A DNA stretch of 32,000 nt from Vibrio alginolyticus NBRC 15630 = ATCC 17749 (GCF_000354175.2 NC_022349.1:2280001-2312000), one strand, 5' to 3'; positions 5,935-28,517 are shown, counted from the first letter of the stretch. Notes: generated from the letters alone by a model not told the origin. Translations and numbers: made by a program.

Positions 5935-6356
5935 GTCGGAAGGATGCTGACACGGAACAGGAAACACCACGGACTTGGTGAACTTCAGGAAGAAGAAACG
6001 GTTATTCAGGATGAATAGTCGGGCATGGATTGCAAAATTGGACATTGAAGGGAATCAATAGTGACTAGGATGGTTGCTACTAAGGACGGGAAATGGACAC
6101 CTCTGGACGAGGCAAGGATTTGAACATCAGGATGATGTCAGGGACACCGCTCAGGGAACAAGTGATGAGAGCTAACGAGGATAGTTAGCAGACCAGGATA
6201 AGGTCATTAAGGACACCGCTAGGAAGGCGACGTAAGGATTAAGCTGACGGATTCAGCACACTATCATGGATTAGATGCATGGAGCACTCTTAGTAGCTGG
6301 ATTGCTGCGAGTAAGACTATAACCCCGATGGGCGCAAGCCCTCGGGGTTTTTCTTT
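5935..6356 (+). ncRNA. csrB: CsrB/CsrC/RsmB-family CsrA-sequestering small RNA (GGA-repeat sponge)
   Basis: I count 28 GGA between 5938 and 6303, against about 6 expected. Several sit in loops of short perfect stems: TATTC-AGGAT-GAATA 6003-6017, CATC-AGGAT-GATG 6125-6137, GCTAAC-GAGGATA-GTTAGC 6171-6189, GACC-AGGATAA-GGTC 6191-6205, GCTGA-CGGAT-TCAGC 6243-6257. No credible ORF. The region ends in a strong intrinsic terminator. The 5' end is approximate. Confidence 0.78.
6321..6356 (+). terminator. Rho-independent terminator of the GGA-repeat sRNA
   Basis: AACCCCGA-T-GGGC-GCAA-GCCC-TCGGGGTT, a 12-bp stem with one bulge and a GNRA loop, followed by TTTTCTTT. Confidence 0.85.
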
Positions 6357-6437
6357 GCCTAAAGTTTTTCTCATCTGCACCGTTAAATCGCGCTTTCGAA
6401 TTCCATTTTTTTACTGCTTTATCGACGCCAAAACCGC

Positions 6438-6655: not shown

Positions 6656-8830
6656 TTACAGTTTCTCTAGTCGTGCGTAAGCAGTTACCAACCATTTGAT
6701 GCCTTCACCGTTAAAGGCAATCTGTACACGGCTTTGTGGACCACTGCCTTCGAAGTTGATGATGGTGCCTTCACCAAACTTTGGATGCATCACACGAGAA
6801 CCTAGCGTAAAGCCGGTTTCATTAAAGCTCTCTTTCACAACAGTTTGGCTAAATCGACCACTGCTTGAAGGACGGCTAACTTGCGCCTTCATTCGTACTT
6901 CATCTAAACAAGTTTCTGGCAGTTCACGGATAAAGCGAGACGGTTTATGGTATTTATCCTGACCGTACAAACGACGCATTTCAGCATAAGTGATGTACAG
7001 TTTCTGCATTGCACGGGTCATGCCTACGTAACACAGACGGCGTTCTTCTTCTAAGCGCCCTGCTTCTTCTGCCGACATTTGGCTTGGGAACATGCCTTCT
7101 TCCACACCGACCATAAACACCAATGGGAACTCTAGACCTTTCGCACTGTGTAATGTCATGAGCTGAACCGCATCTTCAAATTCGTCCGCTTGTCCTTCGC
7201 CCGCTTCTAGTGCTGCGTGGGTTAGGAATGCCGTCAGCAGTGACATGTCTTCGGCTTCTTCTGGTTTCTCGAATTGGCGAGTTGCGGTCACCAATTCCTC
7301 CAAGTTCTCAATACGTGCCTTAGACTTTTCGCCCTTCTCTTGCTCGTACATCGCGAACAAGCCCGAGTATTTAATTACATGGTCAGTTTGGTGATGCAGC
7401 GGCATCTCTAAGGTGTCGTCTTCTAGCGCGGTGACAAGCTCGATAAAACGGCTCAGAGCACCAGCAGCGCGACCAGCAAGCACCTTCTCGTCCAACATAG
7501 CTACACTCGCTTCCCACATGGTGCAACCACGGTCACGAGCCGCAAAACGGATGGTTTCAAGCGTCTTATCGCCCAAACCACGCGTTGGCGTATTCACCAC
7601 ACGTTCAAACGCTGCATCATCGTTACGGTTGGCAATCAGACGCATGTAGCTCAAGGCATCTTTGATTTCCTGACGTTCGAAGAATCGCATGCCGCCATAG
7701 ATACGATAAGGCAGACCGGCTTGAATTAACGCTTCTTCCAGAACACGCGACTGGGCGTTGTTACGGTAAAGCATCGCAGCGTCATTCAGAGCACCGCCCT
7801 TGTCTTGCCACTCTTTGATTTTGTTCACCGCAAAACGGGCTTCATCTAATTCGTTGTAAGCGCTGTAAACCGAGATAGGCTCACCGACCACGCCATCCGT
7901 CCACAACTCTTTACCCATACGCTCGGTGTTATTCGCAATCAGGGTGTTAGATGCTTCCAGAATGGTCTTAGTGGAACGGTAGTTTTGCTCAAGACGAATG
8001 GTATTCACGCTTGGGAATTCGAGCGTAAACTTCTCAATGTTCTCGACTTTTGCACCACGCCAACCATAAATCGACTGGTCGTCATCACCTACGATCATCA
8101 CGTGACACTCAGGACCCGCCATCATACGTAGCCAAGCATATTGAATGTTGTTGGTATCTTGGAACTCATCCACCAAGATATGCTTAAAGCGTGCTTGGTA
8201 GTGTTCACGGACGAACTTGTTATCACGCAGTAGCTCATGTGCGCGCAGCAAGATTTCCGCAAAATCGACTAAACCAGCACGATCACACGCTTCTTGGTAA
8301 GCGGTGTACAACTGTAGATATGTCTTGGTTACTGGATCATGGTACGCATCAATGTGCGACGGGCGCAGACCTTCGTCTTTCTTACCGTTAATCCACCATG
8401 CCACTTGGCGTGCCGGCCACTGCTTCTCATCGAGGTTTTGCGCTTTAATCAAACGCTTTAGTAGACGCTGTTGGTCGTCACTGTCAATGATTTGGAAATC
8501 TTCCGGTAGCTTCGCATCAAGATAGTGTGCACGCAGAATACGGTGACAAATGCCGTGGAAAGTACCATTCCACATACCGCCTGCACTGCCCATCATTAGC
8601 TCTTCGATACGTCCACGCATCTCTGCCGCCGCCTTATTGGTAAAGGTTACCGACATAATTGAAAACGGAGAAGCTTGCTCGACCGACATCAGCCAAGCGA
8701 TACGGTGAACAAGAACGCGTGTCTTACCACTTCCTGCGCCAGCAAGAACGAGCAAGTTTTCTAGAGGTGCTGCAACGGCTTCACGTTGTTTATCGTTCAA
8801 ACCGTCGAGTAATAGAGATGGATCCATCAT
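6656..8830 (-). CDS. uvrD: DNA helicase II UvrD
   Basis: 724-aa ORF beginning MMDPSLLLDGLNDKQREAVAAPLENLLVLAGAGSGKTRVLVHRIAWLM, with Walker A, DEFQDT, QNYRS, and TLHSAKGLEFPLVFMVGVEEGMFP...EERRLCYVGMTRA. This is the UvrD/Rep SF1 motif order, and the length matches UvrD. Confidence 0.96.
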   Translation of the reverse strand: MMDPSLLLDGLNDKQREAVAAPLENLLVLAGAGSGKTRVLVHRIAWLMSVEQASPFSIMSVTFTNKAAAEMRGRIEELMMGSAGGMWNGTFHGICHRILRAHYLDAKLPEDFQIIDSDDQQRLLKRLIKAQNLDEKQWPARQVAWWINGKKDEGLRPSHIDAYHDPVTKTYLQLYTAYQEACDRAGLVDFAEILLRAHELLRDNKFVREHYQARFKHILVDEFQDTNNIQYAWLRMMAGPECHVMIVGDDDQSIYGWRGAKVENIEKFTLEFPSVNTIRLEQNYRSTKTILEASNTLIANNTERMGKELWTDGVVGEPISVYSAYNELDEARFAVNKIKEWQDKGGALNDAAMLYRNNAQSRVLEEALIQAGLPYRIYGGMRFFERQEIKDALSYMRLIANRNDDAAFERVVNTPTRGLGDKTLETIRFAARDRGCTMWEASVAMLDEKVLAGRAAGALSRFIELVTALEDDTLEMPLHHQTDHVIKYSGLFAMYEQEKGEKSKARIENLEELVTATRQFEKPEEAEDMSLLTAFLTHAALEAGEGQADEFEDAVQLMTLHSAKGLEFPLVFMVGVEEGMFPSQMSAEEAGRLEEERRLCYVGMTRAMQKLYITYAEMRRLYGQDKYHKPSRFIRELPETCLDEVRMKAQVSRPSSSGRFSQTVVKESFNETGFTLGSRVMHPKFGEGTIINFEGSGPQSRVQIAFNGEGIKWLVTAYARLEKL

Positions 8831-8841
8831 GATGAGAGCTA

Positions 8842-8857
8842 CTGGTTATTTATACAT
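8842..8857 (-). promoter_or_regulatory. Candidate LexA (SOS) box in the uvrD promoter/5' UTR
   Basis: The minus strand reads ATGT-ATAAATAA-CCAG, against the consensus CTGT-N8-ACAG. It starts about 9 nt downstream of a TATAAT (complement of 8866-8871). The E. coli uvrD box as I recall it also ends in CCAG. There are two mismatches to the consensus. Confidence 0.35.
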
Positions 8858-8978
8858 AAAAACCGATTATAACCTAAACAACCGGGTGCTGTTTAGACAA
8901 AACTTGATAAAAAAATCGATGTTTTTTTGCCCAACACATCAATTAGTTATACCTATTTGACCCTACAAACCTATTTAC

Positions 8979-8996
8979 TTCAGAAATTTTTCTGAA
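8979..8996. promoter_or_regulatory. 18-bp palindrome TTCAGAAA-TT-TTTCTGAA upstream of the DUF2282 gene (candidate operator)
   Basis: Perfect 8-bp arms around a 2-nt centre, 116-133 nt upstream of the ATG at 9112, in the uvrD/DUF2282 divergent intergenic region. I could not assign it to any known regulator motif. Confidence 0.25.
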
Positions 8997-9111
8997 AGTT
9001 TTTTAGCCAGTTTCCTATCTTTTAAGTTAAGCAAGTTGATAACAAAAACGCCAAAACAGGCGATTCATCTTGCCAACTTAAAGTAAAGGAAATCATTCAG
9101 AGGAATTTATT

Positions 9112-9372
9112 ATGAAAAAGTCGAATCTAGCTGTTACTGCTGCTGTTACTGGTCTTCTAGCTCTTGGTGGCACAATGCTAACTGCAGCTCCAGCTGTCGC
9201 TGCTGAAAAAGAAAAGTGCTATGGCGTTTCTAAAGCAGGTAAAAACGACTGTGCAACAAAAAGCAGCTCATGCGCTGGTACTTCTAAAGAAGATAACCAA
9301 AAAGACGCATTCGTAGTCGTACCAAAAGGTCTTTGTGACAAACTCGCTGGCGGTAGCACTTCTTCTTCATAA
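9112..9372 (+). CDS. bufA: DUF2282-family secreted four-cysteine peptide, BufA-type bufferin precursor
   Basis: 86 aa, with GAGGAA 6 nt upstream of the ATG. Sec-type signal peptide MKKSNLAVTAAVTGLLALGGTMLTAAPAVAA. The core is EKEKCYGVSKAGKNDCATKSSSCAGTSKEDNQKDAFVVVPKGLCDKLAGGSTSSS, with Cys at residues 36, 47, 54 and 75 (C-x10-C-x6-C-x20-C). The KCYG...AGxNDCA...CAG signature is typical of DUF2282. Confidence 0.85.
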   Translation: MKKSNLAVTAAVTGLLALGGTMLTAAPAVAAEKEKCYGVSKAGKNDCATKSSSCAGTSKEDNQKDAFVVVPKGLCDKLAGGSTSSS

Positions 9373-9393
9373 TCTTTTATCGCTAGCTATTGT

Positions 9394-9439
9394 GAGGATG
9401 CGTTGACGCTCAACCAACGCAAAGCCAAGACGCATCCTT
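9394..9439 (+). other. Intercistronic RNA stem-loop between precursor and modification genes
   Basis: (G)AGGATGCGT at 9394-9403 pairs with ACGCATCCT(T) at 9430-9439, giving 9 Watson-Crick pairs plus one G-U. An alternative mutually exclusive stem is GCGTTG 9400-9405 with CAACGC 9415-9420. It is followed by TCTCTTCC, which is not a clean U-tract. Confidence 0.45.
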
Positions 9440-9471
9440 CTCTTCCCGCACGATTTGAAAAGGAGTTTCAC

Positions 9472-10344
9472 GTGAAACACCACACCTTCCACGACCTTGT
9501 TGGAGTTGGATTAAGAACCCCTCACCTCGATTACTTTAGCCAAAACCAACCCGAGTTGTCTTGGTTAGAAATCCACAGTGAAAACTATTTCCAACCCAAT
9601 GCAACAGAGCGCCATCAGCTACAAACGCTTCGTGAGCAATATCAAATTAGCTGCCACGGTATTGGTTTGTCGCTAGGTTCGGTGGAACGTGTTAGTCAAA
9701 AGCATCTTGCGCAACTTAAAGCACTGATTAACTCAATCGACCCAATCCTTGTTTCTGACCATTTAAGTTGGAGTGAAAACGGCGGTCACTACTTTAATGA
9801 CCTGCTTCCACTTCCGTATACGGAAGAAGCGCTCAACGTGTTCACTCGTAACGTGAATGAAGTGCAGGAATATTTGCAACGCGAGATCTTGATAGAGAAC
9901 CCATCTAGTTATGTGAAGTTTCAACATTCGACCATCAGCGAATGGGAGTTTCTTACCGAAGTGCAAAAGCGCACTGACTGTCGTTTATTGCTCGATCTAA
10001 ACAATGTTTATGTTTCGGCGTTCAACCACGGTTTTGATTGCGACACATACCTAGATGCGATTCCAGCCGACAAAGTGGATGAGATTCACTTGGCAGGTTT
10101 TACCATCAAACAACTCGACAAAGGTGAGATATGGATTGATACCCATAGCCGCCCAGTTAGTGATGAAGTTTGGCAACTGTTCGCGCAGTGGACAAAAAAA
10201 CACGGTCCACGTCATACGTTGATTGAATGGGATTTGGATATCCCCGCGCCAGAAGTCTTGCTCGAAGAAGCACAGAAAGCATCGCAACTACTGTTGCAAG
10301 GCACACTTCCAAGTGAACAAAGCGAACCAAGGAAGGCATCATGA
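9472..10344 (+). CDS. bufB: DUF692-family multinuclear non-heme iron oxidase (MNIO), MbnB/BufB-like
   Basis: ORF-track frame 9403..10344 begins at TTG. I prefer the GTG at 9472, which is preceded by AAGGAG with 6-nt spacing. TIM-barrel-type strand-end motifs rich in metal ligands are present: RTPHLDYF, LEIHSENYF, CHGIGLSLGS, VSDHLSW, LIENPSSY, LLLDLNNVYVSAFNHG, EIHLAGF, IDTHSRPV, LIEWD. Confidence 0.85.
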   Translation: MKHHTFHDLVGVGLRTPHLDYFSQNQPELSWLEIHSENYFQPNATERHQLQTLREQYQISCHGIGLSLGSVERVSQKHLAQLKALINSIDPILVSDHLSWSENGGHYFNDLLPLPYTEEALNVFTRNVNEVQEYLQREILIENPSSYVKFQHSTISEWEFLTEVQKRTDCRLLLDLNNVYVSAFNHGFDCDTYLDAIPADKVDEIHLAGFTIKQLDKGEIWIDTHSRPVSDEVWQLFAQWTKKHGPRHTLIEWDLDIPAPEVLLEEAQKASQLLLQGTLPSEQSEPRKAS

Positions 10345-11099
10345 ATCTAGCCACCTTACAAAGCCAGTTTGCTAAAGCCCTACACTATCAAGCACTCGGT
10401 GAAGATTGCGATATTGCCAGTGATACGTTTACCGCTGATGAACGCATGCAGATTTACCGCAATAACTTTATCGTCAGCTTAAGCGAGGTGTTATCCGCGA
10501 CCTACCCGATGGTTGAAGCGCTGCTTGGTGAAGAATGCTTTGAACAGATATCTCGCCAGCATGTTCTTTCTTACCCATTAGAAGAAGGAAATGTGGTGCA
10601 TTATGGCGAAGGCTTTCAAGACACCATCATGCAGTTCAGTCAGGTGATCGCACAAGCACCTTACAGCCCTGAAGTCGCACGCTTCGAGTGGCATATCGAC
10701 CTAGCTCGTCAAGCACAGTATGAACAATCCAATGCAGCGGAATTAAAACCGCTTGCGTTACTTGGCGAAGTGAGTGAAGAGCAACAACCCGCTTTAGTCT
10801 TACACCTTAAAAAGGGCTGCCGCAGCTTTGACTCCAACTACGCAGTATTCGATCTATTTAGTGCGATTCAAACTGGGCAATTCGAACAACTTAATATCAA
10901 CCAATTACAGCAAGGTGTCATCTCGATTCAAGCCAATGGAGAAGCCTTGTGTCACGCACTCGATGCCGATGTGTTCCAACTGCTGCAATGTTTAGAGCAG
11001 AAGCAGAGTTTGAGCGAAATACCTGAAGTTTTACTCGCTCATCTCAATCGCATCATGGCACTCGATATTGTTGACGGCTTTACATTGCAATCAATCTAA
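10341..11099 (+). CDS. bufC: DUF2063-family partner protein of the MNIO (MbnC/BufC-like)
   Basis: 252 aa. Its ATG overlaps the upstream stop (ATGA at 10341-10344) and is preceded by AAGGAAGG, which suggests translational coupling. The N-terminal ERMQIYRNNFIVSLSEVLSATYPMVEALLGEECF carries the YRNN motif characteristic of DUF2063. Confidence 0.8.
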   Translation: MNLATLQSQFAKALHYQALGEDCDIASDTFTADERMQIYRNNFIVSLSEVLSATYPMVEALLGEECFEQISRQHVLSYPLEEGNVVHYGEGFQDTIMQFSQVIAQAPYSPEVARFEWHIDLARQAQYEQSNAAELKPLALLGEVSEEQQPALVLHLKKGCRSFDSNYAVFDLFSAIQTGQFEQLNINQLQQGVISIQANGEALCHALDADVFQLLQCLEQKQSLSEIPEVLLAHLNRIMALDIVDGFTLQSI

Positions 11100-11109
11100 G
11101 GAGCACTCT

Positions 11110-11565
11110 ATGAAGGATACGGTTAAAAACTTAGTGAATCGGTATGACGATTTAATCAGTACCTTACAAGCAGCCTTTGTCCCTTTACTACTTCTCTTTT
11201 GCCGCTTTTGGGTTGCTTGGGTGTTCTTCAATTCAGGACTAATCAAAATCTCGTCTTGGGATAGCACGTTGTACTTATTTGAGCTGGAATACCAAGTGCC
11301 AATCTTGCCATGGGAATTGGCGGCTTATTTAGGTACGGCTGCGGAGTTGGTTCTACCGGTGTTCTTGGCACTGGGATTGATTACCCGCCCGATGGCAGCA
11401 ATGCTGTTTGTGTTCAACATCATCGCAGTGATCTCTTACCCACTGTTGTGGGAGAAAGGTTTTTATGACCACCAACTTTGGGGATTGATGATTCTTATCG
11501 TAATCGTATGGGGGCCAGGACCGCTGTCTTTGGACCACATCCTGAAAAAGAAAATGACGAGCTAA
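11110..11565 (+). CDS. DoxX-family integral membrane protein (putative thiol/quinone oxidoreductase subunit)
   Basis: ORF-track frame 11068..11565; the ATG at 11110 (MKDTVKNL) follows AAGGAG at 11098-11103. Four hydrophobic segments. LLLFCRFWVAWVFFNSGLIKI and AAELVLPVFLALGLITRPMAAMLFVFNIIAV are typical DoxX features. Confidence 0.8.
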   Translation: MKDTVKNLVNRYDDLISTLQAAFVPLLLLFCRFWVAWVFFNSGLIKISSWDSTLYLFELEYQVPILPWELAAYLGTAAELVLPVFLALGLITRPMAAMLFVFNIIAVISYPLLWEKGFYDHQLWGLMILIVIVWGPGPLSLDHILKKKMTS

Positions 11566-11570
11566 AAAAC

Positions 11571-11595
11571 TCCCGCATCATGCGGGGATTTTTTA
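11571..11595. terminator. Bidirectional intrinsic terminator shared by the DoxX operon (+) and the 93-aa gene (-)
   Basis: (T)CCCGCA-TCA-TGCGGG(G) hairpin flanked by an A-run (CTAAAAAAC) on the left and a T-run (ATTTTTTATT) on the right. Confidence 0.75.
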
Positions 11596-11877
11596 TTATT
11601 TATTCAAGTAAGCCAGTAGCTCTTCTGCTGAGATACCTTGCTGAGCGAGGTCTTTTGCCATCTGCTCGACTTGTTCATCTTTGCGTGACTCAATCACTTG
11701 CTGAAATTGGTACACGATATCACGCAAAATTGGCAGAGGTACTTGTTTAGCCGCACTACGAATACGCTCGGAGCTTTGATTACCCAGCTCATTAAGCAAC
11801 TTGCCAAACATCACCTTTTCTGGTGAATCTTCCATTTGCTCTAGAATACGAGCCATTTCATACGTGGTTAACGACAT
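11596..11877 (-). CDS. tsrA: Small H-NS N-terminal (oligomerisation) domain-only protein, TsrA-like
   Basis: 93 aa, predicted all-helical, with no DNA-binding C-terminal domain. The C-terminal part ...VIESRKDEQVEQMAKDLAQQGISAEELLAYL resembles E. coli H-NS ...VVNERREEE...[22 protein letters not shown]. Its position next to the bcr/lysR/pepP/thi cluster matches my unverified recollection of V. cholerae tsrA (VC0070). Confidence 0.55.
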   Translation of the reverse strand: MSLTTYEMARILEQMEDSPEKVMFGKLLNELGNQSSERIRSAAKQVPLPILRDIVYQFQQVIESRKDEQVEQMAKDLAQQGISAEELLAYLNK

Positions 11878-11968
11878 TACTTTTTGAGTTCCGTTATGGT
11901 GTCAGGAAAAGTCTGAGTGACAAATATACACGCCTTACTTACATTGGAAAATACTAAATTACACTGAT

Positions 11969-13162
11969 TTACGCTTTCGCAAAGCTCGAGTGCCAGTTCT
12001 TCCCTGCTTTTGTAAACAGAACGACCAACGCAGGTAATAGGACCCACATATGAATTGCAATCAAGGTTTGCGGATCCAGAGATAAGCGTTGCAGCGTACC
12101 CACCAACAAACCAGAGCCACTCATTTGGAACAATCCAAGCAGTGCAGCTGCCGTGCCCGCCTTATCACCAAACGGTTCTAACGCTTTCCCTGCCGCTGCA
12201 CCCAGAATGAATGCAAAACCTACAGAAGACATAAAGATAGGTAACATGAAAGAAAGCGCGGTATTCTGACCATTCATCACTAGCATGATCACACCTGCGA
12301 GACCCAGAGTTGAGATCCCGGTGACCAAGGTGTTGTGAGTTCCAACGCGCTCCATAAACTTAGGCGCCAGCATACATGCCGCAATGTTTATCACCGCATT
12401 TACACCAAACCAGAAAGTGAATTCATTCATCGACAGCCCCATCCCCGTCATCAATACCGACGGTGCTGAGGTAACGTAAGCAAGAATAACCGCCATCGCC
12501 ATCAAGCATAATGACGCATGGAAAACAAAAGATGGTGTGCTAAGCACTGCCCAATACCGACTAAGCTTAAACACGGCTTGCTTTTCTGTTGACGGGTTAG
12601 TCTCTTTCATCATGAAAAACATCAATGATCCAGACACCACAGCAAAACCCGCCATAAAGCTAAAGTTAGCACGCCAGTCAAATTGTTGAGTTAACCAGCT
12701 ACCTAGAATTGGAGCTAAAGCCGGAATGAAACAAATCGCACCGTTAAGGTAGCTGATCATTTTGCCGCTTTTTTCCGGGCCAAAGATATCGCGAACTGTT
12801 GCAAAGGCTGCTACCGATGTCGCACACGCACCTAAGCCTTGTAGCAGTCGGGAAACCAACATCCACTCAATATTTTGAGCACTCCACGCCAATAAAGCGC
12901 TCATCGCGTAAATGGTGATACCGCCCAATGCAACAGTTCGACGTCCGAGTTTATCTGCTAAGGGACCTGCGAATAGCTGACCAACACCCATAGCAAATAA
13001 GAACCAAGTGATCGTGTCTTGTGCTAGCGCATTATCGACCTGAAAAGTGGAAGCAATAAGAGGTAAAGCAGGTAGATAAATATCAATCGCTAAAGGACTG
13101 AAAAGAACCAAAAGGGTCAATAACGCCATCTGTTTTTTACTATTAGAAAACTGGCTAGACAC
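11969..13162 (-). CDS. MFS drug:H+ antiporter, Bcr/CflA subfamily
   Basis: 397 aa, 12 TM segments. GTG start (complement of 13160-13162) with GGAG 7 nt upstream. FSPLAIDIYLPALPLIASTF and GPLADKLGRR are the Bcr/CflA signature regions. Confidence 0.85.
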   Translation of the reverse strand: MSSQFSNSKKQMALLTLLVLFSPLAIDIYLPALPLIASTFQVDNALAQDTITWFLFAMGVGQLFAGPLADKLGRRTVALGGITIYAMSALLAWSAQNIEWMLVSRLLQGLGACATSVAAFATVRDIFGPEKSGKMISYLNGAICFIPALAPILGSWLTQQFDWRANFSFMAGFAVVSGSLMFFMMKETNPSTEKQAVFKLSRYWAVLSTPSFVFHASLCLMAMAVILAYVTSAPSVLMTGMGLSMNEFTFWFGVNAVINIAACMLAPKFMERVGTHNTLVTGISTLGLAGVIMLVMNGQNTALSFMLPIFMSSVGFAFILGAAAGKALEPFGDKAGTAAALLGLFQMSGSGLLVGTLQRLSLDPQTLIAIHMWVLLPALVVLFTKAGKNWHSSFAKA

Positions 13163-13203
13163 ACAACACTCCGAATTGGATAAAGAACTTTGGGTAAAGC
13201 TTA

Positions 13204-13216
13204 ATCATCTGATGAT
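13204..13216. promoter_or_regulatory. Perfect palindrome ATCATC-T-GATGAT in the MFS/LysR divergent region (candidate LysR T-N11-A site)
   Basis: 13-bp perfect dyad; with its flanks it reads T-N11-A. It lies between the MFS start (13162) and the LysR start (13240), upstream of a TATAAT at 13233-13238. Confidence 0.35.
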
Positions 13217-13239
13217 ATGAATGGAAATGATGTATAATC

Positions 13240-14211
13240 ATGAGCATTATTCCTCAGAGGAAATTCACTGTGAACGTCGAAAAACTGGCTCGTATCGATT
13301 TAAATCTATTGGTCTGCTTTAAAGTGCTGATTGAAGAGTTAAATGTTACTCGTGCGGCCCACCGATTGTGCTTAAGCCAATCCGCCGTAAGTAAATCACT
13401 GGCTAAACTGCGCATTCAATTTGATGACCCGCTTTTCACTCGAAACTCACATGGATTAACACCTACGCCGCGCGCATTGTTTCTTAAACCGAAACTGGAT
13501 CTGTTGATAAATCAGTTAGAAGTGCTGACTCAACCCGAAGAGTTTTCTCCGCAAAGCAGCGAATACCGTTTTCAAATAGCAGCTGTAGAGAGTGTCTACC
13601 CTCTCATTCTACCCCATTTCTTACCGGCGATTTTTCAACAAGCACCTGGCGTGACCATAAGCACACACCCGTGGTCGGATAATACATTTAAAATGCTTCA
13701 ACGCGGCGAACTGGATTTAGGCTTAACTGGAAAAGATATCGATATAAACGATGCCAAGCTGACTCTCCAACCACCCGATGACATTTGCGAGTTGGAAATT
13801 TATCGTGATTACCAAATGTGCATCATTCGCAAAAACCATCCTGCGCTAAAACAACCTTGGAATCTGGAAGCCTATCTCGCCCTACGCCATGTACAAGTAC
13901 GTTGTGATGGCAACGACCGTTGGTTGCTGGATTATCGCCTTGCAGATATTGGCGCCGACCGCGATATTGCCGTCACCGTGCCCGACTTTAACAGTGCCGC
14001 AAGTTTATGTTCATACACCGACTTTATCTTTACTGCGCCAAGTCATTTTGTGCAACTTGCGGCCAAACAGCTTGATTTGGTCGTGCTGCCACTACCGTTA
14101 GAATTCCCACCTATGGCTTACACTTTATTCTGGCACCGAGATAGAGAAAACGACCCTGCATTAGGCTGGCTACGTACGATGATCACACAAAAAACCGATC
14201 ACCTTAGATAA
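13240..14211 (+). CDS. LysR-family transcriptional regulator (LeuO-like N-terminus)
   Basis: 323 aa. The HTH reads IDLNLLVCFKVLIEELNVTRAAHRLCLSQSAVSKSLAKLRIQFDDPLFTR. An alternative start is the GTG at 13270, which has a better RBS (AGAGGA 8 nt upstream). Divergent from the MFS pump. Confidence 0.85.
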   Translation: MSIIPQRKFTVNVEKLARIDLNLLVCFKVLIEELNVTRAAHRLCLSQSAVSKSLAKLRIQFDDPLFTRNSHGLTPTPRALFLKPKLDLLINQLEVLTQPEEFSPQSSEYRFQIAAVESVYPLILPHFLPAIFQQAPGVTISTHPWSDNTFKMLQRGELDLGLTGKDIDINDAKLTLQPPDDICELEIYRDYQMCIIRKNHPALKQPWNLEAYLALRHVQVRCDGNDRWLLDYRLADIGADRDIAVTVPDFNSAASLCSYTDFIFTAPSHFVQLAAKQLDLVVLPLPLEFPPMAYTLFWHRDRENDPALGWLRTMITQKTDHLR

Positions 14212-16332: not shown

Positions 16333-17445
16333 TTAACCGGAATACGCTGAGTGCCAATCTCGCCATACAGGGTCAAAACCTTTGGCTCGAATCATATTTT
16401 CCACAGAACCCGCGCTTCGTTCGTCACTGATCTCAAACTGCTCGAGTTCAGCATCATCCATCGCATAACCACCCGGCTGAGTTTTCGATGCAGCAGACAT
16501 ACTAGTGATGCCTAACGGTAATGCATTGTCTCTGAACTTCGGTGATTCACGAGTCGATAATGACAACTCCACTTCTGGATTCAACAAGCGATAAGCGCAA
16601 ATCAACTGCACAAGCTGTTTATCCGTCATGACTGATTTTGGTTGGAGCGCACCCTCACAAGGACGTAAACGTGGGAAAGAAATTGAGTAACGAGTCTGCC
16701 AATACGTGCGCTCAAGATAGTCCAAGTGCGCTGCCACATAAAAACAGTCGGTACGCCACTCTTCCAATCCTATCAAAGCACCAATACCGATCTTATCGAT
16801 GCCTGCTTTTGCAAGACGATCGGGTGTATCCAATCGGTATTCGAAATCCATTTTATTACCTCGCAAATGGTGCTCGGCGTAAGTCGAAGGATGATACGTT
16901 TCTTGATAGACCATCACCGCATCCAAACCCAATGTCTTGAGCTCTGCGTATTCGTCTTGATCTAGCGGCTGCACTTCCATCGCCAAATAGTTAAAGCGCT
17001 TCTTAATCATCGGCACCATTTCGCGGAAGTATTTCATGCCCACTTTGGTTTCGTGTTCGCCAGTCACCAGCAATACGCTATCAAACTTCATGCGTTTAAT
17101 GGCCTCAACTTCTGCAGCCACTTCGTCCCTATTCAAAGTACGACGCTTGATTCTGTTGTCCATAGAGAAGCCACAATAAGTACAAGCATTGGCGCACAAG
17201 TTAGAAAGGTACAGTGGAATATAAAGCGACATGGTATTACCAAAACGCTTGCGAGTGGCCGAGTATGACAGTTGTGCCATCTGCTCTAAGTACGCTTCAG
17301 CCGCTGGTGAAATTAGCGCTTTAAAGTCTTCCAAATCACGCTTGGGTTTATTCAATGCTCGCTCAACATCTTGTGCCGTTTTCGCGTAGATCGACATCGA
17401 AATGTCATCCCAATTAAGCTGCTTAAATTGTTCAACGAAGCTCAT
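16333..17445 (-). CDS. thiH: 2-iminoacetate synthase ThiH (radical SAM tyrosine lyase)
   Basis: 370 aa. YLSNLCANACTYCGF is the CxxxCxxC radical SAM motif. Collinear with E. coli ThiH along its whole length (QLNWDDI, VTGEH, MEVQPL, GLDAVMVYQETYH, SFPRLRP, SKTQPGGY). Confidence 0.95.
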   Translation of the reverse strand: MSFVEQFKQLNWDDISMSIYAKTAQDVERALNKPKRDLEDFKALISPAAEAYLEQMAQLSYSATRKRFGNTMSLYIPLYLSNLCANACTYCGFSMDNRIKRRTLNRDEVAAEVEAIKRMKFDSVLLVTGEHETKVGMKYFREMVPMIKKRFNYLAMEVQPLDQDEYAELKTLGLDAVMVYQETYHPSTYAEHHLRGNKMDFEYRLDTPDRLAKAGIDKIGIGALIGLEEWRTDCFYVAAHLDYLERTYWQTRYSISFPRLRPCEGALQPKSVMTDKQLVQLICAYRLLNPEVELSLSTRESPKFRDNALPLGITSMSAASKTQPGGYAMDDAELEQFEISDERSAGSVENMIRAKGFDPVWRDWHSAYSG

Positions 17446-17479
17446 GTTTTCCTCGCTTAATAGCTAAACCAATCTAGTA

Positions 17480-18247
17480 CTAAAGCTCATCTAGGAATGA
17501 CGTCAGTGGACTCGACGCAACCGCATGAGAAACCTTACCGGCAAGTCCGGCTTCATAAGCCATACGCCCCGACTCTACCGCCAACTTAAATGCCTTCGCC
17601 ATCGCAACGGGATCGCTCGAAGCTGCAATCGCAGTATTAACGAGCACGGCATCCGCGCCCATTTCCATCGCACGCGCGGCATGTGAAGGAGCACCAATAC
17701 CCGCATCAACAATGACAGGAACATTAGCTTGGTCGATGATGATCTCTAGGAAATCGTGAGAAACTATCCCTTTGTTGGAACCAATCGGAGCACCTAATGG
17801 CATGACAGCAGCGCAGCCAACCTCTTCCAATCGTTTACACAGAACCGGGTCAGCATGACAGTAAGGAAGGACAATGAAGCCTTCACGAACCAGCTGTTCA
17901 GCGGCTGCAAGTGTCTCAATTGGATCGGGCATCAAGTACTTCGGGTCTGGATGAATTTCCAGTTTTAGCCAGTTAGTACCCAACGCTTCTCGCGCCAGTT
18001 GTGCAGCAAACACAGCATCTTTAGCATTCTTTGCTCCTGATGTGTTTGGCAATAAGTTCACCCCCGCTTTTACTAGCGGCAGCAAAATATCGTCTTGTTG
18101 GTCATTCACATCCACACGCTTCAACGCCATGGTCGCAAGTTGAGAGCCCGATACTTGAATCGCTTCTGCCATTAATCGGCTGCTGGCAAATTTCCCTGTT
18201 CCCGTGAACAGTCTTGATTCGAATTGTTTATCACCAATTTTAAGCAT
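17480..18247 (-). CDS. thiG: Thiazole synthase ThiG
   Basis: 255 aa: [20 protein letters not shown]...LPNTSGA...LKLEIHPD...[13 protein letters not shown]...[12 protein letters not shown]. Confidence 0.95.
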
Positions 18248-18252
18248 CGACT

Positions 18253-18507
18253 TTAACCCCCCGCGATCGCTTGAAACAAAGAGATGCTATCTCCCTGTGA
18301 AAGAACTGTGCTAGCCCACTCACTGCGTGGCACAACATTGTTATTAATTGCAAAAACGCAGCCCTTTTCTGGTAGCGCAAATTGACTAATGATTTGCTGT
18401 AGATTCGACTCACTGGCAACTCGATGTGACTGGTCATTGATGACAATAGTGATCACATCTAAGTCAGCAGCGGTCATTTGTGTTGTTTGTTGTTCTGATA
18501 ACGTCAT
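18253..18507 (-). CDS. thiS: Sulfur-carrier protein ThiS (with a short N-terminal extension; start uncertain)
   Basis: Ends in the diagnostic ...LFQAIAGG followed by a stop. The core [25 protein letters not shown]...[33 protein letters not shown] aligns with E. coli ThiS. Candidate starts are TTG 18516 (ORF track), ATG 18507 (chosen) and ATG 18477. Confidence 0.85.
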
Positions 18508-18553
18508 TGCTTCCAACTCTCTTAATTCTGCCTATTACTCGTATACTCGTAAG

Positions 18554-19327
18554 CTAAATCTGAGCACATACTTGGCACTGTTTGTCTTTGCTTATCGCCA
18601 TGGTTTGCCATTGCAGTTTCAACCCATCAAACAGATGCAACTTGGCAGTCTCGACATGAAACTTTCCCGTCGCCAGTTTTTGAATTGCCGCTATCGCTTG
18701 GTAGTTACCAAGTGTGCCCACTACCGGGCCGACAACACCGCTCTCACTGCATTTTTGACTTTGTGGTAATTCGTCAAACGGATACAAACAGCGGTAACAG
18801 GCTTTACTCTGCACTTCTTGTTCACTTGGTGTTTGGTAATCAAAGACAGCAAATTGCCCTTGCCAACCAATTGCCGCCGCTGAGATGAGTGGCGTATTTT
18901 GCTCGAAACAAACTTGGTTAATTAGCTGACGCGTTGGCATGTTATCGGTGCAGTCGAGCACCACATCCGCTAGCATCACCTCAAGCTGAAGCTGTGCTTT
19001 GTCTAATCGCTTATTGATAGCACGAATTTGAACCATAGTATTAAGTTCAGTAAGTTGCTTTACAGTCGCTTTTGTTTTCGCAACTTGGAGGTCTTGTTCA
19101 CGATAAATGATCTGACGTTGTAGGTTACTGCTATCAACTTCATCGTCATCGACTACAACCAATTTACCAACGCCCGCTGACGCCAAGTACAAACTCGCTG
19201 CGCTCCCCAATCCACCACAACCGATGATCAGCACATGCGATTTGCTCAAACGCTCTTGCCCAACTTCGGCAATTTCTGGCAGAGCGACTTGACGTTGATA
19301 GCGAAGGAACTGCTTATCCGTGAGCAT
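18554..19327 (-). CDS. thiF: ThiS adenylyltransferase ThiF
   Basis: ORF-track frame extends to 19357. The ATG at 19327 ([14 protein letters not shown]) aligns with the E. coli ThiF N-terminus (MNDRDFMRYSRQI). Features: GCGGLGS nucleotide loop, SNLQRQ, and the CYRC...CQVC zinc cysteines. It overlaps the thiE 3' end by 14 nt. Confidence 0.92.
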
Positions 19328-20728
19328 GCTCGCCTCTCTTACTAAGCGCCAACTCACTATTCTGATCAGTAAACGTTAGCTGTCTTTCCTTCATCAGTTG
19401 TGCAAAAAACTCGATAACGAACTGAGGTGATTCTGCCAACGTAATAGCACGCACAACTGCCAAACTAGAGACGCCTGTGCGCCAAACTTGGTCTGCATTA
19501 GATTGGTCAATGCCACCAATCGCGACCGTCGGAAAGCCAAGCACATAGTCACTATCTGCTTTGTCTTTTGAAGGATGGAAAACCGACTCCGCGTTTCCAT
19601 AAGGAATGCTATCAATCAGCTTTTGATACAGAGCCAAGCGCACCAAACCTTGTGGTTTCGATGGCATCTGTTTTGTGGTGGTTGGGAAAATATGCCCTAG
19701 CGCGATGTAACTAGGATGAATTTGTACGATGCGCAGTAGCTCATAATAACCATGAGTAGAAAGACCAAGACGAATGCCGGCTTTAGTTAGCTGAGCCAAA
19801 TTCGATTCTTCTATGTCTTCTTGTCCTAGGTGAACACCATAAGCGCCATGCTTGATTGCCAACTGCCAATAGTCATTGATGAACACTTGTGCTTGATACT
19901 GACGACCTAGCTCAATTGCTCGAATGATCTGTTGTTCTAAATCGGCTTGTTGTGGGTCCTTGATTCGCAGTTGAATAGTGTTGATGCCTAGTGGCAGTAA
20001 ACGCTCAATCCAAGCAACGTCATCAACGACTGGGTAGAGCCCTAGACTTTGCTTGGTTAGAGTTGGAAAGCTAACACTCTCACCTTGTGCAGACCAACCA
20101 ACTTGAATACCTAGTCGGTTATCCTCCAGTACAGGTGTGGGGAAATCATCAAATTGGTCAGCCCACTGAGTAGAGCGTCCCTCGTCAAGGTTGTCGTTCA
20201 ACAGTGTTTCACGTGAAACATTCGCTTGTTGAGTTAGCATTCCTTGAGCAAGTGTTAACGCATCTTCGATAGGAAAATCGAGTACTGTCAGCGTTACTAT
20301 CCAAGCAAGGTGATGTTCGGGATCGAACATTGCGTTGGGTTTGGACTTAACGGAAAGCGCTCTCACTTCGTCGTTAATTGGGTGACGCCAGATATCAAGC
20401 TGAAGCACTTTCTCCTTTTCACCGAAAACCTGAGTATCAGCAATACCAATATAAATCGCTTTCGACGGTTGCTTAGCACACGCTTCTACCGACAAAGCAG
20501 AACGGTAATAGAGCACAAGTGAACTCTCATGCTCAGAGTCATAATCATCAATGAGATCAGTCGTTATGTGTGTGGTCTGTTGGCCGCGAACAAGCTGAAT
20601 AGATTGAGTTGGGCTCACACCCAACTCAATGTCTTCAATGCTAAAACCCTGTTCTTTCGCCAACAACAAACATTGCTGAACGAAACCTGTCAGTTCAATC
20701 AACGATGACGGAATAAGGATTTTGCTCA

Positions 20729-20729
<1 letters not shown>
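19314..20729 (-). CDS. thiE: Thiamine-phosphate synthase ThiE with an about 228-aa N-terminal extension of unknown function
   Basis: 471 aa, versus about 211 aa for E. coli ThiE. Residues about 229-433 ([17 protein letters not shown]...LQLRIKD...[23 protein letters not shown]...[21 protein letters not shown]...PTVAIGGI) are collinear with E. coli ThiE. I recognise no motifs in residues 1-228. The start forms TAATG with the thiC stop. Confidence 0.9.
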
Positions 20730-22693
<1,964 letters not shown>

Positions 22694-22844
22694 CTAGATA
22701 AAAAGTAATTGGATAAAAATGCTTGGCGGATAGATGCGACAAGAGGAGTCAAATTAAGGCTAGTTAAAGCTTACGATATTTGCCTGTAACAACATTCGAC
22801 TTTTGATAGATCAACCAGAAAGAACTCCGGTGTGAATATCTTCT

Positions 22845-22925
22845 CTTGTTCCCTTCGCAGATTCTAATCTGATCAGGTTCAACGGATCCCGAATTAACGG
22901 TCTCAGCCTTATGGCACTCCGACAA
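22845..22925 (-). ncRNA. TPP (THI-box) riboswitch aptamer in the thiC leader
   Basis: The minus strand reads GGAGUGCCAUAAGGCUGAGACCGUUAAUUCGGGAUCCGUUGAACCUGAUCAGAUUAGAAUCUGCGAAGGGAA. It contains the invariant CUGAGA, ACCUGAUC.GGAU.A..C..GCG.AGGGA-type elements in the correct order, about 175 nt upstream of the thiC ATG. Confidence 0.9.
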
Positions 22926-22940
22926 GTGATGTCAGTATAT

Positions 22941-25125: not shown

Positions 25126-25202
<77 letters not shown>

Positions 25203-25263
25203 ATAGAATTTTCATATTCTAGATTTGACAAAACCTCGCATAAGCGAGGTTGTCGATATTAAG

Positions 25264-25627: not shown

Positions 25628-28517
<2,890 letters not shown>

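What the first reader, a model, noticed from the sequence alone, without database searches (positions are those of the whole stretch)
9112..11565. Uncharacterised bufferin-type RiPP operon: secreted four-Cys DUF2282 peptide + DUF692 (MNIO) + DUF2063 + DoxX
Seen in the sequence: four tightly packed same-strand genes, bounded by a divergent promoter region (8831-9111) and a bidirectional terminator (11571-11595).
(1) An 86-aa peptide with a strong RBS, a Sec signal peptide and a 55-aa core with exactly four Cys (C-x10-C-x6-C-x20-C; KCYGVSKAGKNDCATKSSSCAGTSK...GLCDK).
(2) A TIM-barrel DUF692 protein with metal-ligand-rich strand ends (EIHSENYF, CHGIGLS, SDHLSW, IENPSSY, LLDLNNVY, EIHLAGF, DTHSRPV, IEWD).
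(3) A DUF2063 protein (YRNN motif) whose ATG overlaps the DUF692 stop (ATGA).
(4) A 4-TM DoxX protein.
Established knowledge: DUF692 enzymes are multinuclear non-heme iron oxidases (MNIOs) that, with a DUF2063/MbnC-type partner, oxidatively rearrange Cys residues of ribosomal peptides. MbnBC in methanobactin biosynthesis is the paradigm. As I recall, the DUF2282/DUF692/DUF2063/DoxX arrangement was characterised experimentally only recently, and only in Caulobacter. Those 'bufferins' have Cys converted to 5-thiooxazoles and act as periplasmic copper-binding peptides that protect against copper stress.
Inference: this locus encodes an unstudied Vibrio-type member of that family. Unlike what I remember for other such loci, no sigma/anti-sigma pair or other regulator flanks it, and there is no dedicated protease or exporter. 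It sits back to back with uvrD.
Basis: partly seen in the sequence, partly recalled or inferred. Interest (0 to 1): 0.9.

Follow-up and report, generated by a model that had tools for sequence, protein, structure and literature searches.

The report
Ordinary Vibrio bufferin (BufA1) copper-peptide operon
This is a standard four-gene bufferin operon, which makes a small secreted peptide whose cysteines are enzymatically converted into metal-binding rings; it is present in nearly every Vibrio and already named as such in public databases, so it is real but not new.

Summary
The 86-aa peptide hits DUF2282/BufA1 (E 1.7e-23). The MNIO passes NCBIfam's BufB equivalog cut-off (379.6 vs 310 bits). The third protein is DUF2063 with the fold of MNIO partner proteins. 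The fourth is a 4-TM DoxX.

The peptide has one N-terminal signal segment and four Cys spaced 10/6/20, the majority pattern of the family. uvrD-bufABCD synteny holds in 79 of 80 Vibrio species.

NCBI, UniRef and Pfam already call these Vibrio proteins "BufA1 family periplasmic bufferin-type metallophore". Published surveys list thousands of such clusters with this four-gene core. Absence of a sigma/anti-sigma pair, protease or exporter is normal for the family.

The one correction: bufA and bufB are 99 nt apart, not tightly packed. That spacer holds a hairpin conserved in all 80 Vibrio spacers, with covarying stems. A second conserved hairpin sits at the predicted 5' end of the transcript. Neither matches Rfam or is mentioned in the bufferin papers.

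Verdict: observation confirmed, interpretation supported, already known, low interest. Chemistry and copper role are inferred by homology only.

The parts
8992..9021 (+). Promoter-like pair conserved across Vibrionaceae: cTGAAA (8992-8997; TTGAAA in many species), 18-nt spacer, then TATCTT (9016-9021; TATCCT in most species), preceded by a near-invariant C at 9015
   Evidence: Columns are conserved in at least 90% of 80 Vibrio intergenic regions. The same xGAAAG-N15-CCTATC spacing occurs in Grimontia and Salinivibrio. It was not picked up by the consensus scan. Promoter function and the sigma factor used are inferred.
9031..9074 (+). Hairpin at the predicted 5' end of the transcript (GCAAGUUGA ... 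UCAUCUUGC) with a loop of variable length
   Evidence: 84.6% of cells are paired versus 20-44% when partners are slid; 17 cells changed on both sides, reached by 0 of 500 shuffles. Loop length varies from about 7 to 60 nt between species. Stems are entirely different at the same position in Grimontia (GCACUG/CAGUGC) and Salinivibrio (GCCCAC/GUGGGC). The window UTR folds this way, -14.1 kcal/mol, z -2.0. No Rfam match.
9099..9104 (+). Ribosome-binding site GAGGAA of bufA
   Evidence: Near-invariant in the 80 Vibrio loci.
9112..9372 (+). bufA: BufA1/DUF2282 precursor. Sec signal peptide (residues 1-30/31) plus a 55-56 aa core with Cys36, 47, 54 and 75
   Evidence: PF10048 E 1.7e-23, 82.8 bits vs cut-off 22.4. 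Single hydrophobic segment at residues 6-24, followed by AVA|A or VAA|E. Spacing 10/6/20 in 79 of 80 Vibrio loci and in 111 of 136 patterned family representatives. A 99%-identical RefSeq protein is named BufA1 family.
9394..9439 (+). Intercistronic hairpin in the 99-nt bufA-bufB spacer, with loop motif GCUCAAC and no U-run after the stem
   Evidence: dG -18.4 kcal/mol in the window. All 80 spacers have a hairpin (median -17.5, weakest -11.8), with 59 distinct 5'-arm 8-mers and GCUCAAC in 38 of 80. It exceeds dinucleotide shuffles, median z 4.4. Covariance-model alignment: 79.4% paired vs 30-48% slid, 11 of 12 pairs with changes on both sides, 97 such cells vs 36+-6 in shuffles. Absent from five of six non-Vibrio loci, whose spacers are 0-21 nt.
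9472..10344 (+). bufB: multinuclear non-heme iron oxidase (MNIO, formerly DUF692) of the bufferin-maturase type
   Evidence: PF05114 E 1.7e-107. NF050167 MNIO_BufB equivalog 379.6 bits vs cut-off 310; below the HvfB, MbnB, ApyH and ChrH cut-offs. Iron ligands of VcMbnB align to H97, E142, D175, N178, H206, D223 and H225. H62 and E252 fit by spacing or motif only.
10341..11099 (+). bufC: DUF2063/HvfC_N partner protein with a C-terminal alpha/beta domain; its start overlaps the bufB stop (ATGA)
   Evidence: PF09836 E 1.4e-21. AlphaFold2 model pLDDT 86.8. The only significant PDB fold matches are TglI, the partner of MNIO TglH (8hi7_A, E 8e-7), and NGO1945/3DEE (E 1.4e-4). Orthologues are named HvfC/BufC.
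11110..11565 (+). bufD: DoxX-family membrane protein with four hydrophobic segments
   Evidence: PF07681 E 5.8e-18. Hydropathy peaks near residues 22-40, 74-92, 95-113 and 123-141. Weak match to HvfX (47.5 bits, cut-off 80).
11571..11597 (.). Bidirectional intrinsic terminator shared with the convergent 93-aa gene
   Evidence: G+C-rich stem TCCCGCATCATGCGGGG flanked by A-run and T-run, found on both strands.

Best explanation
The locus is the Vibrio copy of a bufferin-1 (BufA1) RiPP gene cluster.

Proposed mechanism, by homology to Caulobacter Buf1. BufA is translated as an 86-aa precursor. In the cytoplasm the iron-dependent oxidase BufB, held on the substrate by its partner BufC, carries out a four-electron oxidation of the two central cysteines (Cys47, Cys54), turning each into a 5-thiooxazole ring. 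The Sec system exports the peptide and signal peptidase I cuts after A30 or A31. Cys36 and Cys75 then form a disulfide, giving a folded 55-56-residue periplasmic mini-protein that binds copper through the thiooxazole groups and buffers excess metal. DoxX is an accessory membrane protein that Caulobacter does not need for the modification.

Shown here: the gene content, family membership, conserved Cys pattern, conserved iron ligands, partner-protein fold and genus-wide conservation.

Inferred only: the chemistry, export, copper binding and physiological role.

Added inference. In Vibrio the operon is driven by a conserved sigma-70-family promoter, and bufA is bracketed by two conserved RNA hairpins. 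These probably stabilise the bufA segment, or attenuate read-through, so that precursor mRNA exceeds enzyme mRNA.
For: - Profile hits for all four proteins, with BufB above its curated equivalog cut-off.
- One N-terminal hydrophobic segment with an AXA-type cleavage site, and four Cys spaced 10/6/20. Caulobacter BufA1 has core Cys12/23/31/52, spacing 10/7/20, with the central two modified and the outer two in a disulfide. 10/6/20 is the majority pattern in the family.
- Seven MNIO iron ligands conserved in alignment with MbnB.
- BufC model matches TglI and NGO1945.
- ATGA overlap, short gaps and a single terminator indicate one operon.
- uvrD-bufABCD synteny in 79 of 80 Vibrio species. BufA is 78-98% identical while BufC falls to 38%, so the peptide is under strong purifying selection.
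- NCBI, UniRef and Pfam already name the orthologues BufA1 and HvfC/BufC.
- Published requirement for BufB and BufC but not DoxX, and copper protection, in Caulobacter and in E. coli carrying buf1.
- Hairpins.
Against: - No experiment on any Vibrio member was found in the searchable literature.
- No copper-responsive regulator or sigma/anti-sigma pair lies anywhere in the 32-kb window, so copper induction is not supported here.
- A related MNIO/DUF2063 cluster in Microbulbifer was not expressed under copper stress.
- DUF692/DUF2063 operons gave chlorite-resistance phenotypes in three gammaproteobacteria.
- The signal peptide was judged by hydropathy and the -3/-1 rule, not by a trained predictor.
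- His62 and Glu252 as ligands rest on spacing and motif only.
- The promoter and the role of the hairpins are inferred from conservation alone.
Confidence: 0.85

Rival explanations
1. Same cluster and same chemistry, but in Vibrio the peptide's main role is not copper detoxification. It serves general or oxidative (chlorite/hypochlorite, sulfur) stress protection, or housekeeping metal handling, and is expressed from a general-stress or constitutive promoter rather than a copper-sensing circuit.
For: [quoted passage not shown]
- The bufferin survey itself suggests DoxX points to other stresses.
- There is no metal sensor or ECF sigma in the window.
- The conserved -10 region TCTATCCTTTT, with its C just upstream of the hexamer, resembles from my memory the RpoS-type extended -10.
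- The Microbulbifer relative did not respond to copper.
Against: - The only direct functional data for DUF2282 peptides are copper induction, copper binding and copper protection.
- The gig operons of Cupriavidus and Legionella respond to copper and gold.
- The RpoS resemblance is recalled rather than tested, and a regulator may be encoded elsewhere.
Confidence: 0.2
2. The locus belongs to a different MNIO peptide class: an Hvf/oxazolin-type (EGKCG-repeat, 'captophorin' Lys-Cys) system, a BufA2 six-Cys bufferin, or a methanobactin-like chalkophore used for copper acquisition.
For: - Weak sub-threshold hits to HvfB (233.8 bits), HvfC (28.1), HvfX (47.5), BufA2 (24.6) and MbnB (64).
- All of these systems share the MNIO plus partner logic.
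Against: - Every one of those scores is below its curated cut-off (360, 142, 80, 60 and 325 bits), while BufB passes its own.
- The precursor has no EGKCG or Cys-Lys repeats and has four rather than six Cys.
- It carries a Sec signal peptide instead of a leader peptide.
- No TonB receptor, MATE exporter or MbnA-like gene is nearby.
Confidence: 0.02
3. The DUF2282 protein is an unmodified secreted or membrane protein (Pfam's old description was 'predicted integral membrane protein'), and its adjacency to the MNIO genes has no biosynthetic meaning.
For: - The published survey notes that sizeable proportions of DUF2282 genes are not next to an MNIO gene.
- No modification was measured here.
Against: - The only hydrophobic stretch is the N-terminal signal segment.
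- The gene order bufA-MNIO-DUF2063 is fixed in 79 of 80 Vibrio loci and in six of six distant loci.
- BufB and BufC are necessary and sufficient to modify BufA1 in Caulobacter and in vitro.
- The two central Cys are invariant across the 60-sequence family alignment.
Confidence: 0.03

Closest known systems
Bufferin 1 cluster buf1ABCD (CCNA_03363-03366) of Caulobacter vibrioides (Leprevost et al. 2024, PMC11626156)
   Same: Same four genes in the same order (DUF2282 precursor, MNIO, DUF2063, DoxX). Sec signal peptide on the precursor. Four conserved Cys with near-identical spacing (10/6/20 here, 10/7/20 there). No dedicated protease or exporter.
   Different: - The Vibrio core is shorter (55-56 vs 68 residues) and CysI lies 5-6 residues from the N-terminus instead of 12.
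- There are no adjacent SigF/NrsF genes.
- A 99-nt bufA-bufB spacer with a conserved hairpin, and a 5'-UTR hairpin, are present in Vibrio. I could not examine the Caulobacter spacer.
- The Vibrio product has never been analysed.
gig (gold-induced genes) operons of Cupriavidus metallidurans and Legionella pneumophila (PMC5413113; cited in PMC11626156)
   Same: Homologous DUF2282/DUF692/DUF2063/DoxX operons, now classed as Buf1 clusters.
   Different: These are known mainly from metal-induced transcription (gold, copper). No such expression data exist for the Vibrio locus, and I found no metal regulator near it.
Hvf/oxazolin, gonophorin, fontiphorin and bulbicupramide systems (MNIO + DUF2063 acting on EGKCG or Cys-cassette peptides; PMC11252979, PMC13097082, PMC12538549)
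   Same: The same enzyme pair and, after structural revision, the same 5-thiooxazole product and copper binding. These clusters are reported as enriched in Vibrionales.
   Different: The precursors are repeat peptides rather than a folded DUF2282 domain. The Vibrio MNIO scores below the HvfB cut-off and above the BufB cut-off.
MbnBC of methanobactin biosynthesis (PMC8888699, PMC9060507)
   Same: TIM-barrel MNIO with the same iron ligands acting on Cys of a ribosomal peptide, plus a partner protein.
   Different: A different product (oxazolone/thioamide), a leader-dependent small secreted chalkophore used for copper uptake, and only 64 bits against the MbnB model (cut-off 325).

Membership tests
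Bufferin 1 (BufA1/DUF2282) gene cluster | Precursor matches the DUF2282/BufA1 profile (PF10048) | tested here: met
   82.8 bits, E 1.7e-23, cut-off 22.4; profile positions 1-52 of 53.
Bufferin 1 (BufA1/DUF2282) gene cluster | Precursor carries a Sec signal peptide with a signal-peptidase I site instead of a RiPP leader | tested here: met
   MKK n-region, a single hydrophobic segment at residues 6-24, then AVA|A or VAA|E. A30 is invariant and A31 near-invariant in Vibrio. Judged by hydropathy and the -3/-1 rule only; no SignalP was available.
Bufferin 1 (BufA1/DUF2282) gene cluster | Four conserved Cys (CysI-IV), with the central pair as modification targets and the outer pair forming a disulfide | tested here: met
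   Cys36/47/54/75, spacing 10/6/20, versus Caulobacter 10/7/20. Identical in 79 of 80 Vibrio loci. 111 of 136 patterned family representatives share 10/6/20. Three Cys are invariant and the fourth is conserved in at least 90% of a 60-sequence family alignment.
Bufferin 1 (BufA1/DUF2282) gene cluster | Adjacent MNIO of the bufferin-maturase subfamily with intact iron ligands | tested here: met
   NF050167 MNIO_BufB equivalog 379.6 bits, above cut-off 310. H97, E142, D175, N178, H206, D223 and H225 align with VcMbnB H91, E135, D165, N168, H194, D209 and H211. H62 and E252 fit by spacing or motif only.
Bufferin 1 (BufA1/DUF2282) gene cluster | DUF2063 partner protein (BufC) with an N-terminal DUF2063 domain and a C-terminal RRE-like domain | tested here: met
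   PF09836 77 bits. The confident model (pLDDT 86.8) has an N-terminal helical domain followed by an alpha/beta domain. Top PDB matches are TglI and NGO1945/3DEE. Peptide binding by the C-terminal domain was not tested.
Bufferin 1 (BufA1/DUF2282) gene cluster | DoxX gene at the end of the operon (frequent core component; dispensable in Caulobacter) | tested here: met
   PF07681 65.7 bits; four hydrophobic segments.
Bufferin 1 (BufA1/DUF2282) gene cluster | CysII and CysIII converted to 5-thiooxazoles (-4.03 Da each) and a CysI-CysIV disulfide in the mature periplasmic peptide | not testable with these tools
   Requires co-expression and MS/NMR. Defined for Caulobacter Buf1.
Bufferin 1 (BufA1/DUF2282) gene cluster | Copper binding and protection from copper stress | not testable with these tools
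   Requires metal-binding assays and a deletion mutant. Shown only for Caulobacter and for E. coli carrying buf1.
Bufferin 1 (BufA1/DUF2282) gene cluster | Neighbouring ECF sigma / NrsF anti-sigma pair (present in some Buf1 clusters; not a defining feature) | tested here: not met
   No sigma-70 r2/r4 or NrsF domain occurs in any large ORF of the 32-kb window. It is also absent from six of six non-Vibrio loci. The survey treats it as optional.
Hvf/oxazolin-type (EGKCG) MNIO system | HvfB, HvfC and HvfX equivalog scores, and an EGKCG-repeat precursor | tested here: not met
   233.8 vs 360, 28.1 vs 142 and 47.5 vs 80 bits. The peptide has no EGKCG repeat.
Bufferin 2 (BufA2, six or twelve Cys) | BufA2 equivalog score and six conserved Cys | tested here: not met
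   24.6 bits vs cut-off 60; four Cys only.
Methanobactin (MbnABC) | MbnB equivalog score, an MbnA precursor, and uptake/export genes | tested here: not met
   64 bits vs cut-off 325. No MbnA-like gene, TonB receptor or MATE exporter in the window.

The most novel reading that the evidence does not exclude
In the genus Vibrio, and partly in Salinivibrio, the bufferin operon has replaced the ECF sigma/anti-sigma copper switch seen in Caulobacter with RNA-level control. A conserved sigma-70-family (possibly RpoS-like) promoter is followed by a 5'-terminal stem-loop, and a covarying intercistronic stem-loop with a conserved GCUCAAC loop follows bufA. Together these would yield a stable monocistronic bufA message in excess over bufBCD. 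The conserved loop could also be the binding site of an unknown RNA-binding factor. If so, the Vibrio bufferin would be a constitutively or general-stress expressed core periplasmic component rather than a copper-induced defence.
Probability: 0.25. Interest if true: 0.4.

Novelty: already known. Interest (0 to 1): 0.18.

Why it matters
As a gene cluster it matters little. It is one more copy of a family with thousands of catalogued members, and public annotation already names it correctly.

Its modest value is practical:
- Vibrio is genetically tractable and includes pathogens of humans, fish and shellfish that meet copper in hosts and in aquaculture. The locus is a fixed core feature of the genus beside uvrD, so a Vibrio knockout would be a convenient test of whether bufferins protect against copper, reactive chlorine or something else.
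- The two conserved RNA hairpins around bufA are not described in the bufferin papers I could read. They offer a simple, testable case of how a RiPP operon may set the precursor-to-enzyme ratio.

Tried and rejected
- The sigma-70 consensus scan found no + strand promoter before bufA, so the promoter proposal rests on conservation only.
- I compared the conserved upstream block by eye with remembered consensus sequences for CueR/MerR-type palindromes, sigma-54 (GG-N10-GC), RpoE and Caulobacter SigF (GTAACC-N16-CGAA). None fitted. A sigma-32-like reading (TTGAAA-N15-tCCtATcT) and an RpoS-like -10 are both possible and remain unresolved.
- RNAalifold on the MAFFT alignment of the 5' UTR predicted no structure because several 3' arms were misaligned. 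I therefore counted a named structure instead.
- The whole 110-nt bufA-bufB spacer is not significantly more stable than shuffles (z -0.95). The signal lies in the local hairpin and its conservation, not in total folding energy.
- Sequence search of the PDB found nothing for BufA, and nothing meaningful for BufC. 3DEE appeared only by fold comparison.
- I suspected that the buf operon itself was a recombinant patch, because the neighbouring MFS and LysR genes match V. diabolicus. Sliding identity showed that the patch is only the MFS-LysR pair and that buf is uniformly Harveyi-like.
- A possible kissing interaction between the GCUCAAC loop and GUUGA in the 5' UTR is only 5 bp, so I dropped it.
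- Literature searches for Vibrio-specific work on DUF2282, DUF692 or DUF2063 returned none. The library holds open-access papers only.
- I did not model a BufA/BufB/BufC complex, because the tool folds single chains.


Full report
**Observation.** The + strand between 9112 and 11565 carries four ORFs as described.
- bufA, 9112-9372, is 86 aa and is preceded by GAGGAA.
- The second gene most likely starts at GTG 9472, with AAGGAG 6 nt upstream. The Pfam match begins at residue 10 of that form, and orthologues align from residue 1. It ends at 10344.
- The third gene starts at the ATG at 10341, overlapping that stop (ATGA), and ends at 11099.
- The fourth gene runs from 11110 to 11565 behind an AAGGAG.
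- A G+C-rich hairpin with T-runs on both strands at 11571-11587 closes the unit.
- uvrD (6656-8830) is divergent.

bufA and bufB are 99 nt apart, so the operon is not uniformly tightly packed.

**Family assignment.**
- Pfam gives PF10048 (DUF2282) E 1.7e-23, PF05114 (MbnB_TglH_ChrH) E 1.7e-107, PF09836 (DUF2063) E 1.4e-21 and PF07681 (DoxX) E 5.8e-18.
- In NCBIfam the oxidase scores 379.6 bits on the MNIO_BufB equivalog (cut-off 310). It fails the HvfB (233.8 vs 360), ApyH, MbnB (64 vs 325) and ChrH models.
- The peptide fails BufA2 (24.6 vs 60).
- The locus is therefore specifically a bufferin-1 type cluster, not an oxazolin, BufA2 or methanobactin system.

**The peptide.**
- It has one hydrophobic segment (residues 6-24) after MKK, followed by AVA|A or VAA|E. 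This leaves a 55-56-residue Lys/Asp/Glu-rich core without His or Met.
- Cys lie at 36, 47, 54 and 75, a spacing of 10/6/20.
- Caulobacter Buf1 has core Cys12, 23, 31 and 52 (10/7/20). Its central two Cys are oxidised to 5-thiooxazoles and the outer two form a disulfide.
- 79 of 80 Vibrio orthologues have 10/6/20.
- Among 150 representatives of the 1,300 family clusters at 50% identity, 111 of the 136 with a recognisable pattern have 10/6/20 and only 8 have the Caulobacter spacing. The Vibrio peptide is the typical form.
- Across Vibrio the core is almost invariant (KEKCYGV.KAGKNDCATK.SSCAGT...DAFVV.PKGLC). BufA stays at 78-98% identity while BufC drops to 38%. That pattern fits a folded functional mini-protein.

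**The enzymes.**
- There is no solved BufB structure. The nearest by sequence is 3BWW, an uncharacterised DUF692 protein (E 2.9e-39), followed by TglH and MbnB.
- The iron ligands of Vibrio caribbenthicus MbnB are H55, H91, E135, D165, N168, H194, D209, H211 and E238.
- Using the printed alignment to 7DZ9, H91, E135, D165, N168, H194, D209 and H211 correspond to BufB H97, E142, D175, N178, H206, D223 and H225.
- H62 (CHGIGLS) fits H55 by spacing. E252-W-D254 fits the E238/D240 motif. These two are inferences.
- BufC finds no PDB relative by sequence. Its AlphaFold2 model is confident (pLDDT 86.8, pTM 0.80). The only significant fold matches are TglI, the partner of MNIO TglH (8hi7_A, 8hci_A), and NGO1945 (3DEE), the structural founder of DUF2063.
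- BufD has four hydrophobic segments.

**Distribution and prior knowledge.**
- The window comes from a Harveyi-clade Vibrio, about 95% nucleotide identity to V. harveyi over the operon. The best BufC matches, at 98%, are labelled V. alginolyticus or multispecies.
- uvrD-bufA-bufB-bufC-bufD is syntenic in 79 of 80 Vibrio species genomes. The exception is a contig end. The same order holds in Grimontia and Salinivibrio.
- RefSeq and UniRef already name the 99%-identical protein and its orthologues 'BufA1 family periplasmic bufferin-type metallophore' and 'HvfC/BufC N-terminal domain-containing protein'. Pfam's current names are BufA1 and HvfC_N.
- Leprevost et al. 2024 defined the family and showed that BufB and BufC, but not DoxX, are required.
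- The 2025 survey collected thousands of Buf1 peptides. It states that precursor, MNIO, DUF2063 and DoxX genes are the core, with sigma/anti-sigma genes in only some Buf1 clusters.
- A further study notes that MNIO-partner clusters are enriched in Vibrionales.
- A profile search found at least 6,536 BufA1-type proteins.
- None of six distant loci I fetched has a sigma/anti-sigma pair, and none is present anywhere in this window.

I found no experimental paper on a Vibrio member.

**What is slightly new: RNA elements around bufA.**

*Intercistronic hairpin.*
- The 99-nt bufA-bufB spacer folds into a hairpin (window 9394-9439, -18.4 kcal/mol).
- Every one of the 80 Vibrio spacers has one (median -17.5, weakest -11.8), with 59 different 5'-arm 8-mers. 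38 carry GCUCAAC in the loop.
- Perfect-stem scores exceed dinucleotide shuffles (median z 4.4; 64 of 80 have z above 2).
- A covariance model built from 22 copies found the element in 40 of the 81 bufA-bufB spacers. Elsewhere in 1 Mb of flanking DNA it gave only five weak hits, all with E above 0.1.
- On the resulting alignment 79.4% of cells pair, against 30-48% when partners are slid. Eleven of 12 pairs show changes on both sides, and 97 such cells compare with 36+-6 in shuffles. That alignment was fitted to the model, which favours the structure.
- The window copy has a ~13-nt insertion in the loop relative to V. harveyi and has no U-run after the stem, so it is not a canonical intrinsic terminator.
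- Outside Vibrio the spacer is 0-21 nt, leaving no room for such a hairpin. The exception is Salinivibrio, at 54 nt with a -19.9 kcal/mol hairpin.

*Promoter-like pair and 5' hairpin.*
- Upstream of bufA, conservation across species reveals xTGAAAGTTTT-N-(T/C)CTATC(C/T)TTTT (window 8992-9021). This can be read as TTGAAA-18-TATCYT with a conserved C before the -10 hexamer.
- Grimontia and Salinivibrio have the identical spacing.
- Immediately downstream is an inverted repeat, GCAAGUUGA...UCAUCUUGC (9031-9074). Its loop varies from about 7 to 60 nt. Its stem is paired in 84.6% of cells against 20-44% when slid.
- In Grimontia (GCACUG/CAGUGC) and Salinivibrio (GCCCAC/GUGGGC) the stem is replaced by unrelated sequences at the same place.
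- Variable spacing and full stem replacement argue for an RNA hairpin at the 5' end of the transcript rather than a protein operator.

No Rfam family matches either element, and the bufferin papers mention neither.

My inference is that the two hairpins bracket bufA, stabilising that segment or attenuating read-through, so that precursor mRNA exceeds enzyme mRNA. From general knowledge, this is a common arrangement in RiPP operons. It is untested.

**Mechanism and rivals.**
- Best explanation (0.85 for identity and chemistry by homology): cytoplasmic oxidation of Cys47 and Cys54 to thiooxazoles by BufBC, Sec export, signal-peptide cleavage, a Cys36-Cys75 disulfide, and periplasmic copper buffering.
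- The physiological role is less certain. DUF692/DUF2063 operons gave chlorite-resistance phenotypes in three gammaproteobacteria. A related Microbulbifer cluster did not respond to copper. No copper sensor flanks this locus.
- A role in oxidant or general stress is therefore a live rival (0.2).
- Assignment to other MNIO classes, or to an unmodified secreted protein, is effectively excluded by thresholds, the Cys pattern and fixed gene order.

**Verdict.** The finding is real and correctly interpreted, but it is a routine, already annotated member of a family described in 2024-2025. Novelty: already known. Interest: about 0.18, carried mostly by the undescribed Vibrio-specific RNA hairpins and by the usefulness of Vibrio as a test organism.

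Noticed in passing
window 9373-9471 (hairpin 9394-9439); L001-L080 spacers; L082 4262-4315: The bufA-bufB spacer carries a hairpin conserved in all 80 Vibrio species, with covarying stems and a GCUCAAC loop motif in 38 of 80. It is absent where the spacer is 0-21 nt (Grimontia, Motilimonas and three other gammaproteobacterial loci) and present in Salinivibrio. Why the loop sequence is conserved is unexplained.
   Followed up: yes
window 8992-9074: A conserved promoter-like pair (TGAAAG-N15-CCTATC) is followed by a 5'-UTR hairpin with variable loop length and, in other genera, replaced stems. The -10 region resembles RpoS-type or sigma-32-type elements from memory; the sigma factor was not determined.
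   Followed up: partly
window 8840-8871: A LexA-box-like CTG-N10-CAT (TACTGGTTATTTATACATAA) lies next to the uvrD -10 (TATAAT on the - strand, 8866-8871). It is conserved in at least 90% of Vibrio species and suggests SOS control of uvrD. It sits about 130 nt from the bufA promoter-like element.
   Followed up: partly
window about 11800-14200 (MFS 11969-13162, LysR 13240-14211): This is a mosaic patch. The divergent MFS-transporter/LysR pair is 93-95% identical to V. diabolicus but 76-88% to V. harveyi. The flanks on both sides, including the buf operon, are about 95% harveyi-like and 77-87% diabolicus-like. This suggests a homologous-recombination import.
   Followed up: partly
window 11596-11877 (- strand): A 93-aa protein consists only of an H-NS N-terminal oligomerisation domain (PF22470, E 2.4e-8), convergent with bufD and sharing its terminator. 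It is present at this position in roughly half of the Vibrio loci. It could be a truncated H-NS modulator.
   Followed up: partly
window 9394-9439 vs L001 5935-5970: The window's intercistronic hairpin has a ~13-nt insertion (AAAGCCAAGACGC-like, partly duplicating the 3' arm) relative to V. harveyi, owensii and jasicida. This gives two alternative pairings for the 5' arm.
   Followed up: no
L028 11455-11489, L043 11518-11552, L050 11452-11486: The hairpin covariance model gives weak hits (E 0.13-0.7) about 5.5 kb downstream of bufB at similar positions in three species. These may be unrelated terminators or a second copy of the motif.
   Followed up: no
window 6043-6358 (+): A CsrB/RsmB-family small RNA (Rfam RF00018, 84.7 bits) lies between the gamma-glutamyltranspeptidase gene and uvrD.
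   Followed up: no
window 22833-22931 (-), 16333-22669 (-): A TPP riboswitch lies upstream of a thiamine biosynthesis operon (thiC, a TMP-synthase fusion, thiF, thiG, thiH-like).
   Followed up: no
window 23499-24881 (-): A 460-aa three-domain multicopper-oxidase-like protein lies about 12 kb from the bufferin operon, next to a CrcB fluoride channel gene. It may be an FtsP/SufI-type or CueO-type protein. No link to the buf locus was examined.
   Followed up: no
window 25129-30621 (-): A complete rRNA operon (16S, two tRNAs, 23S, 5S, two more tRNAs) is present.
   Followed up: no
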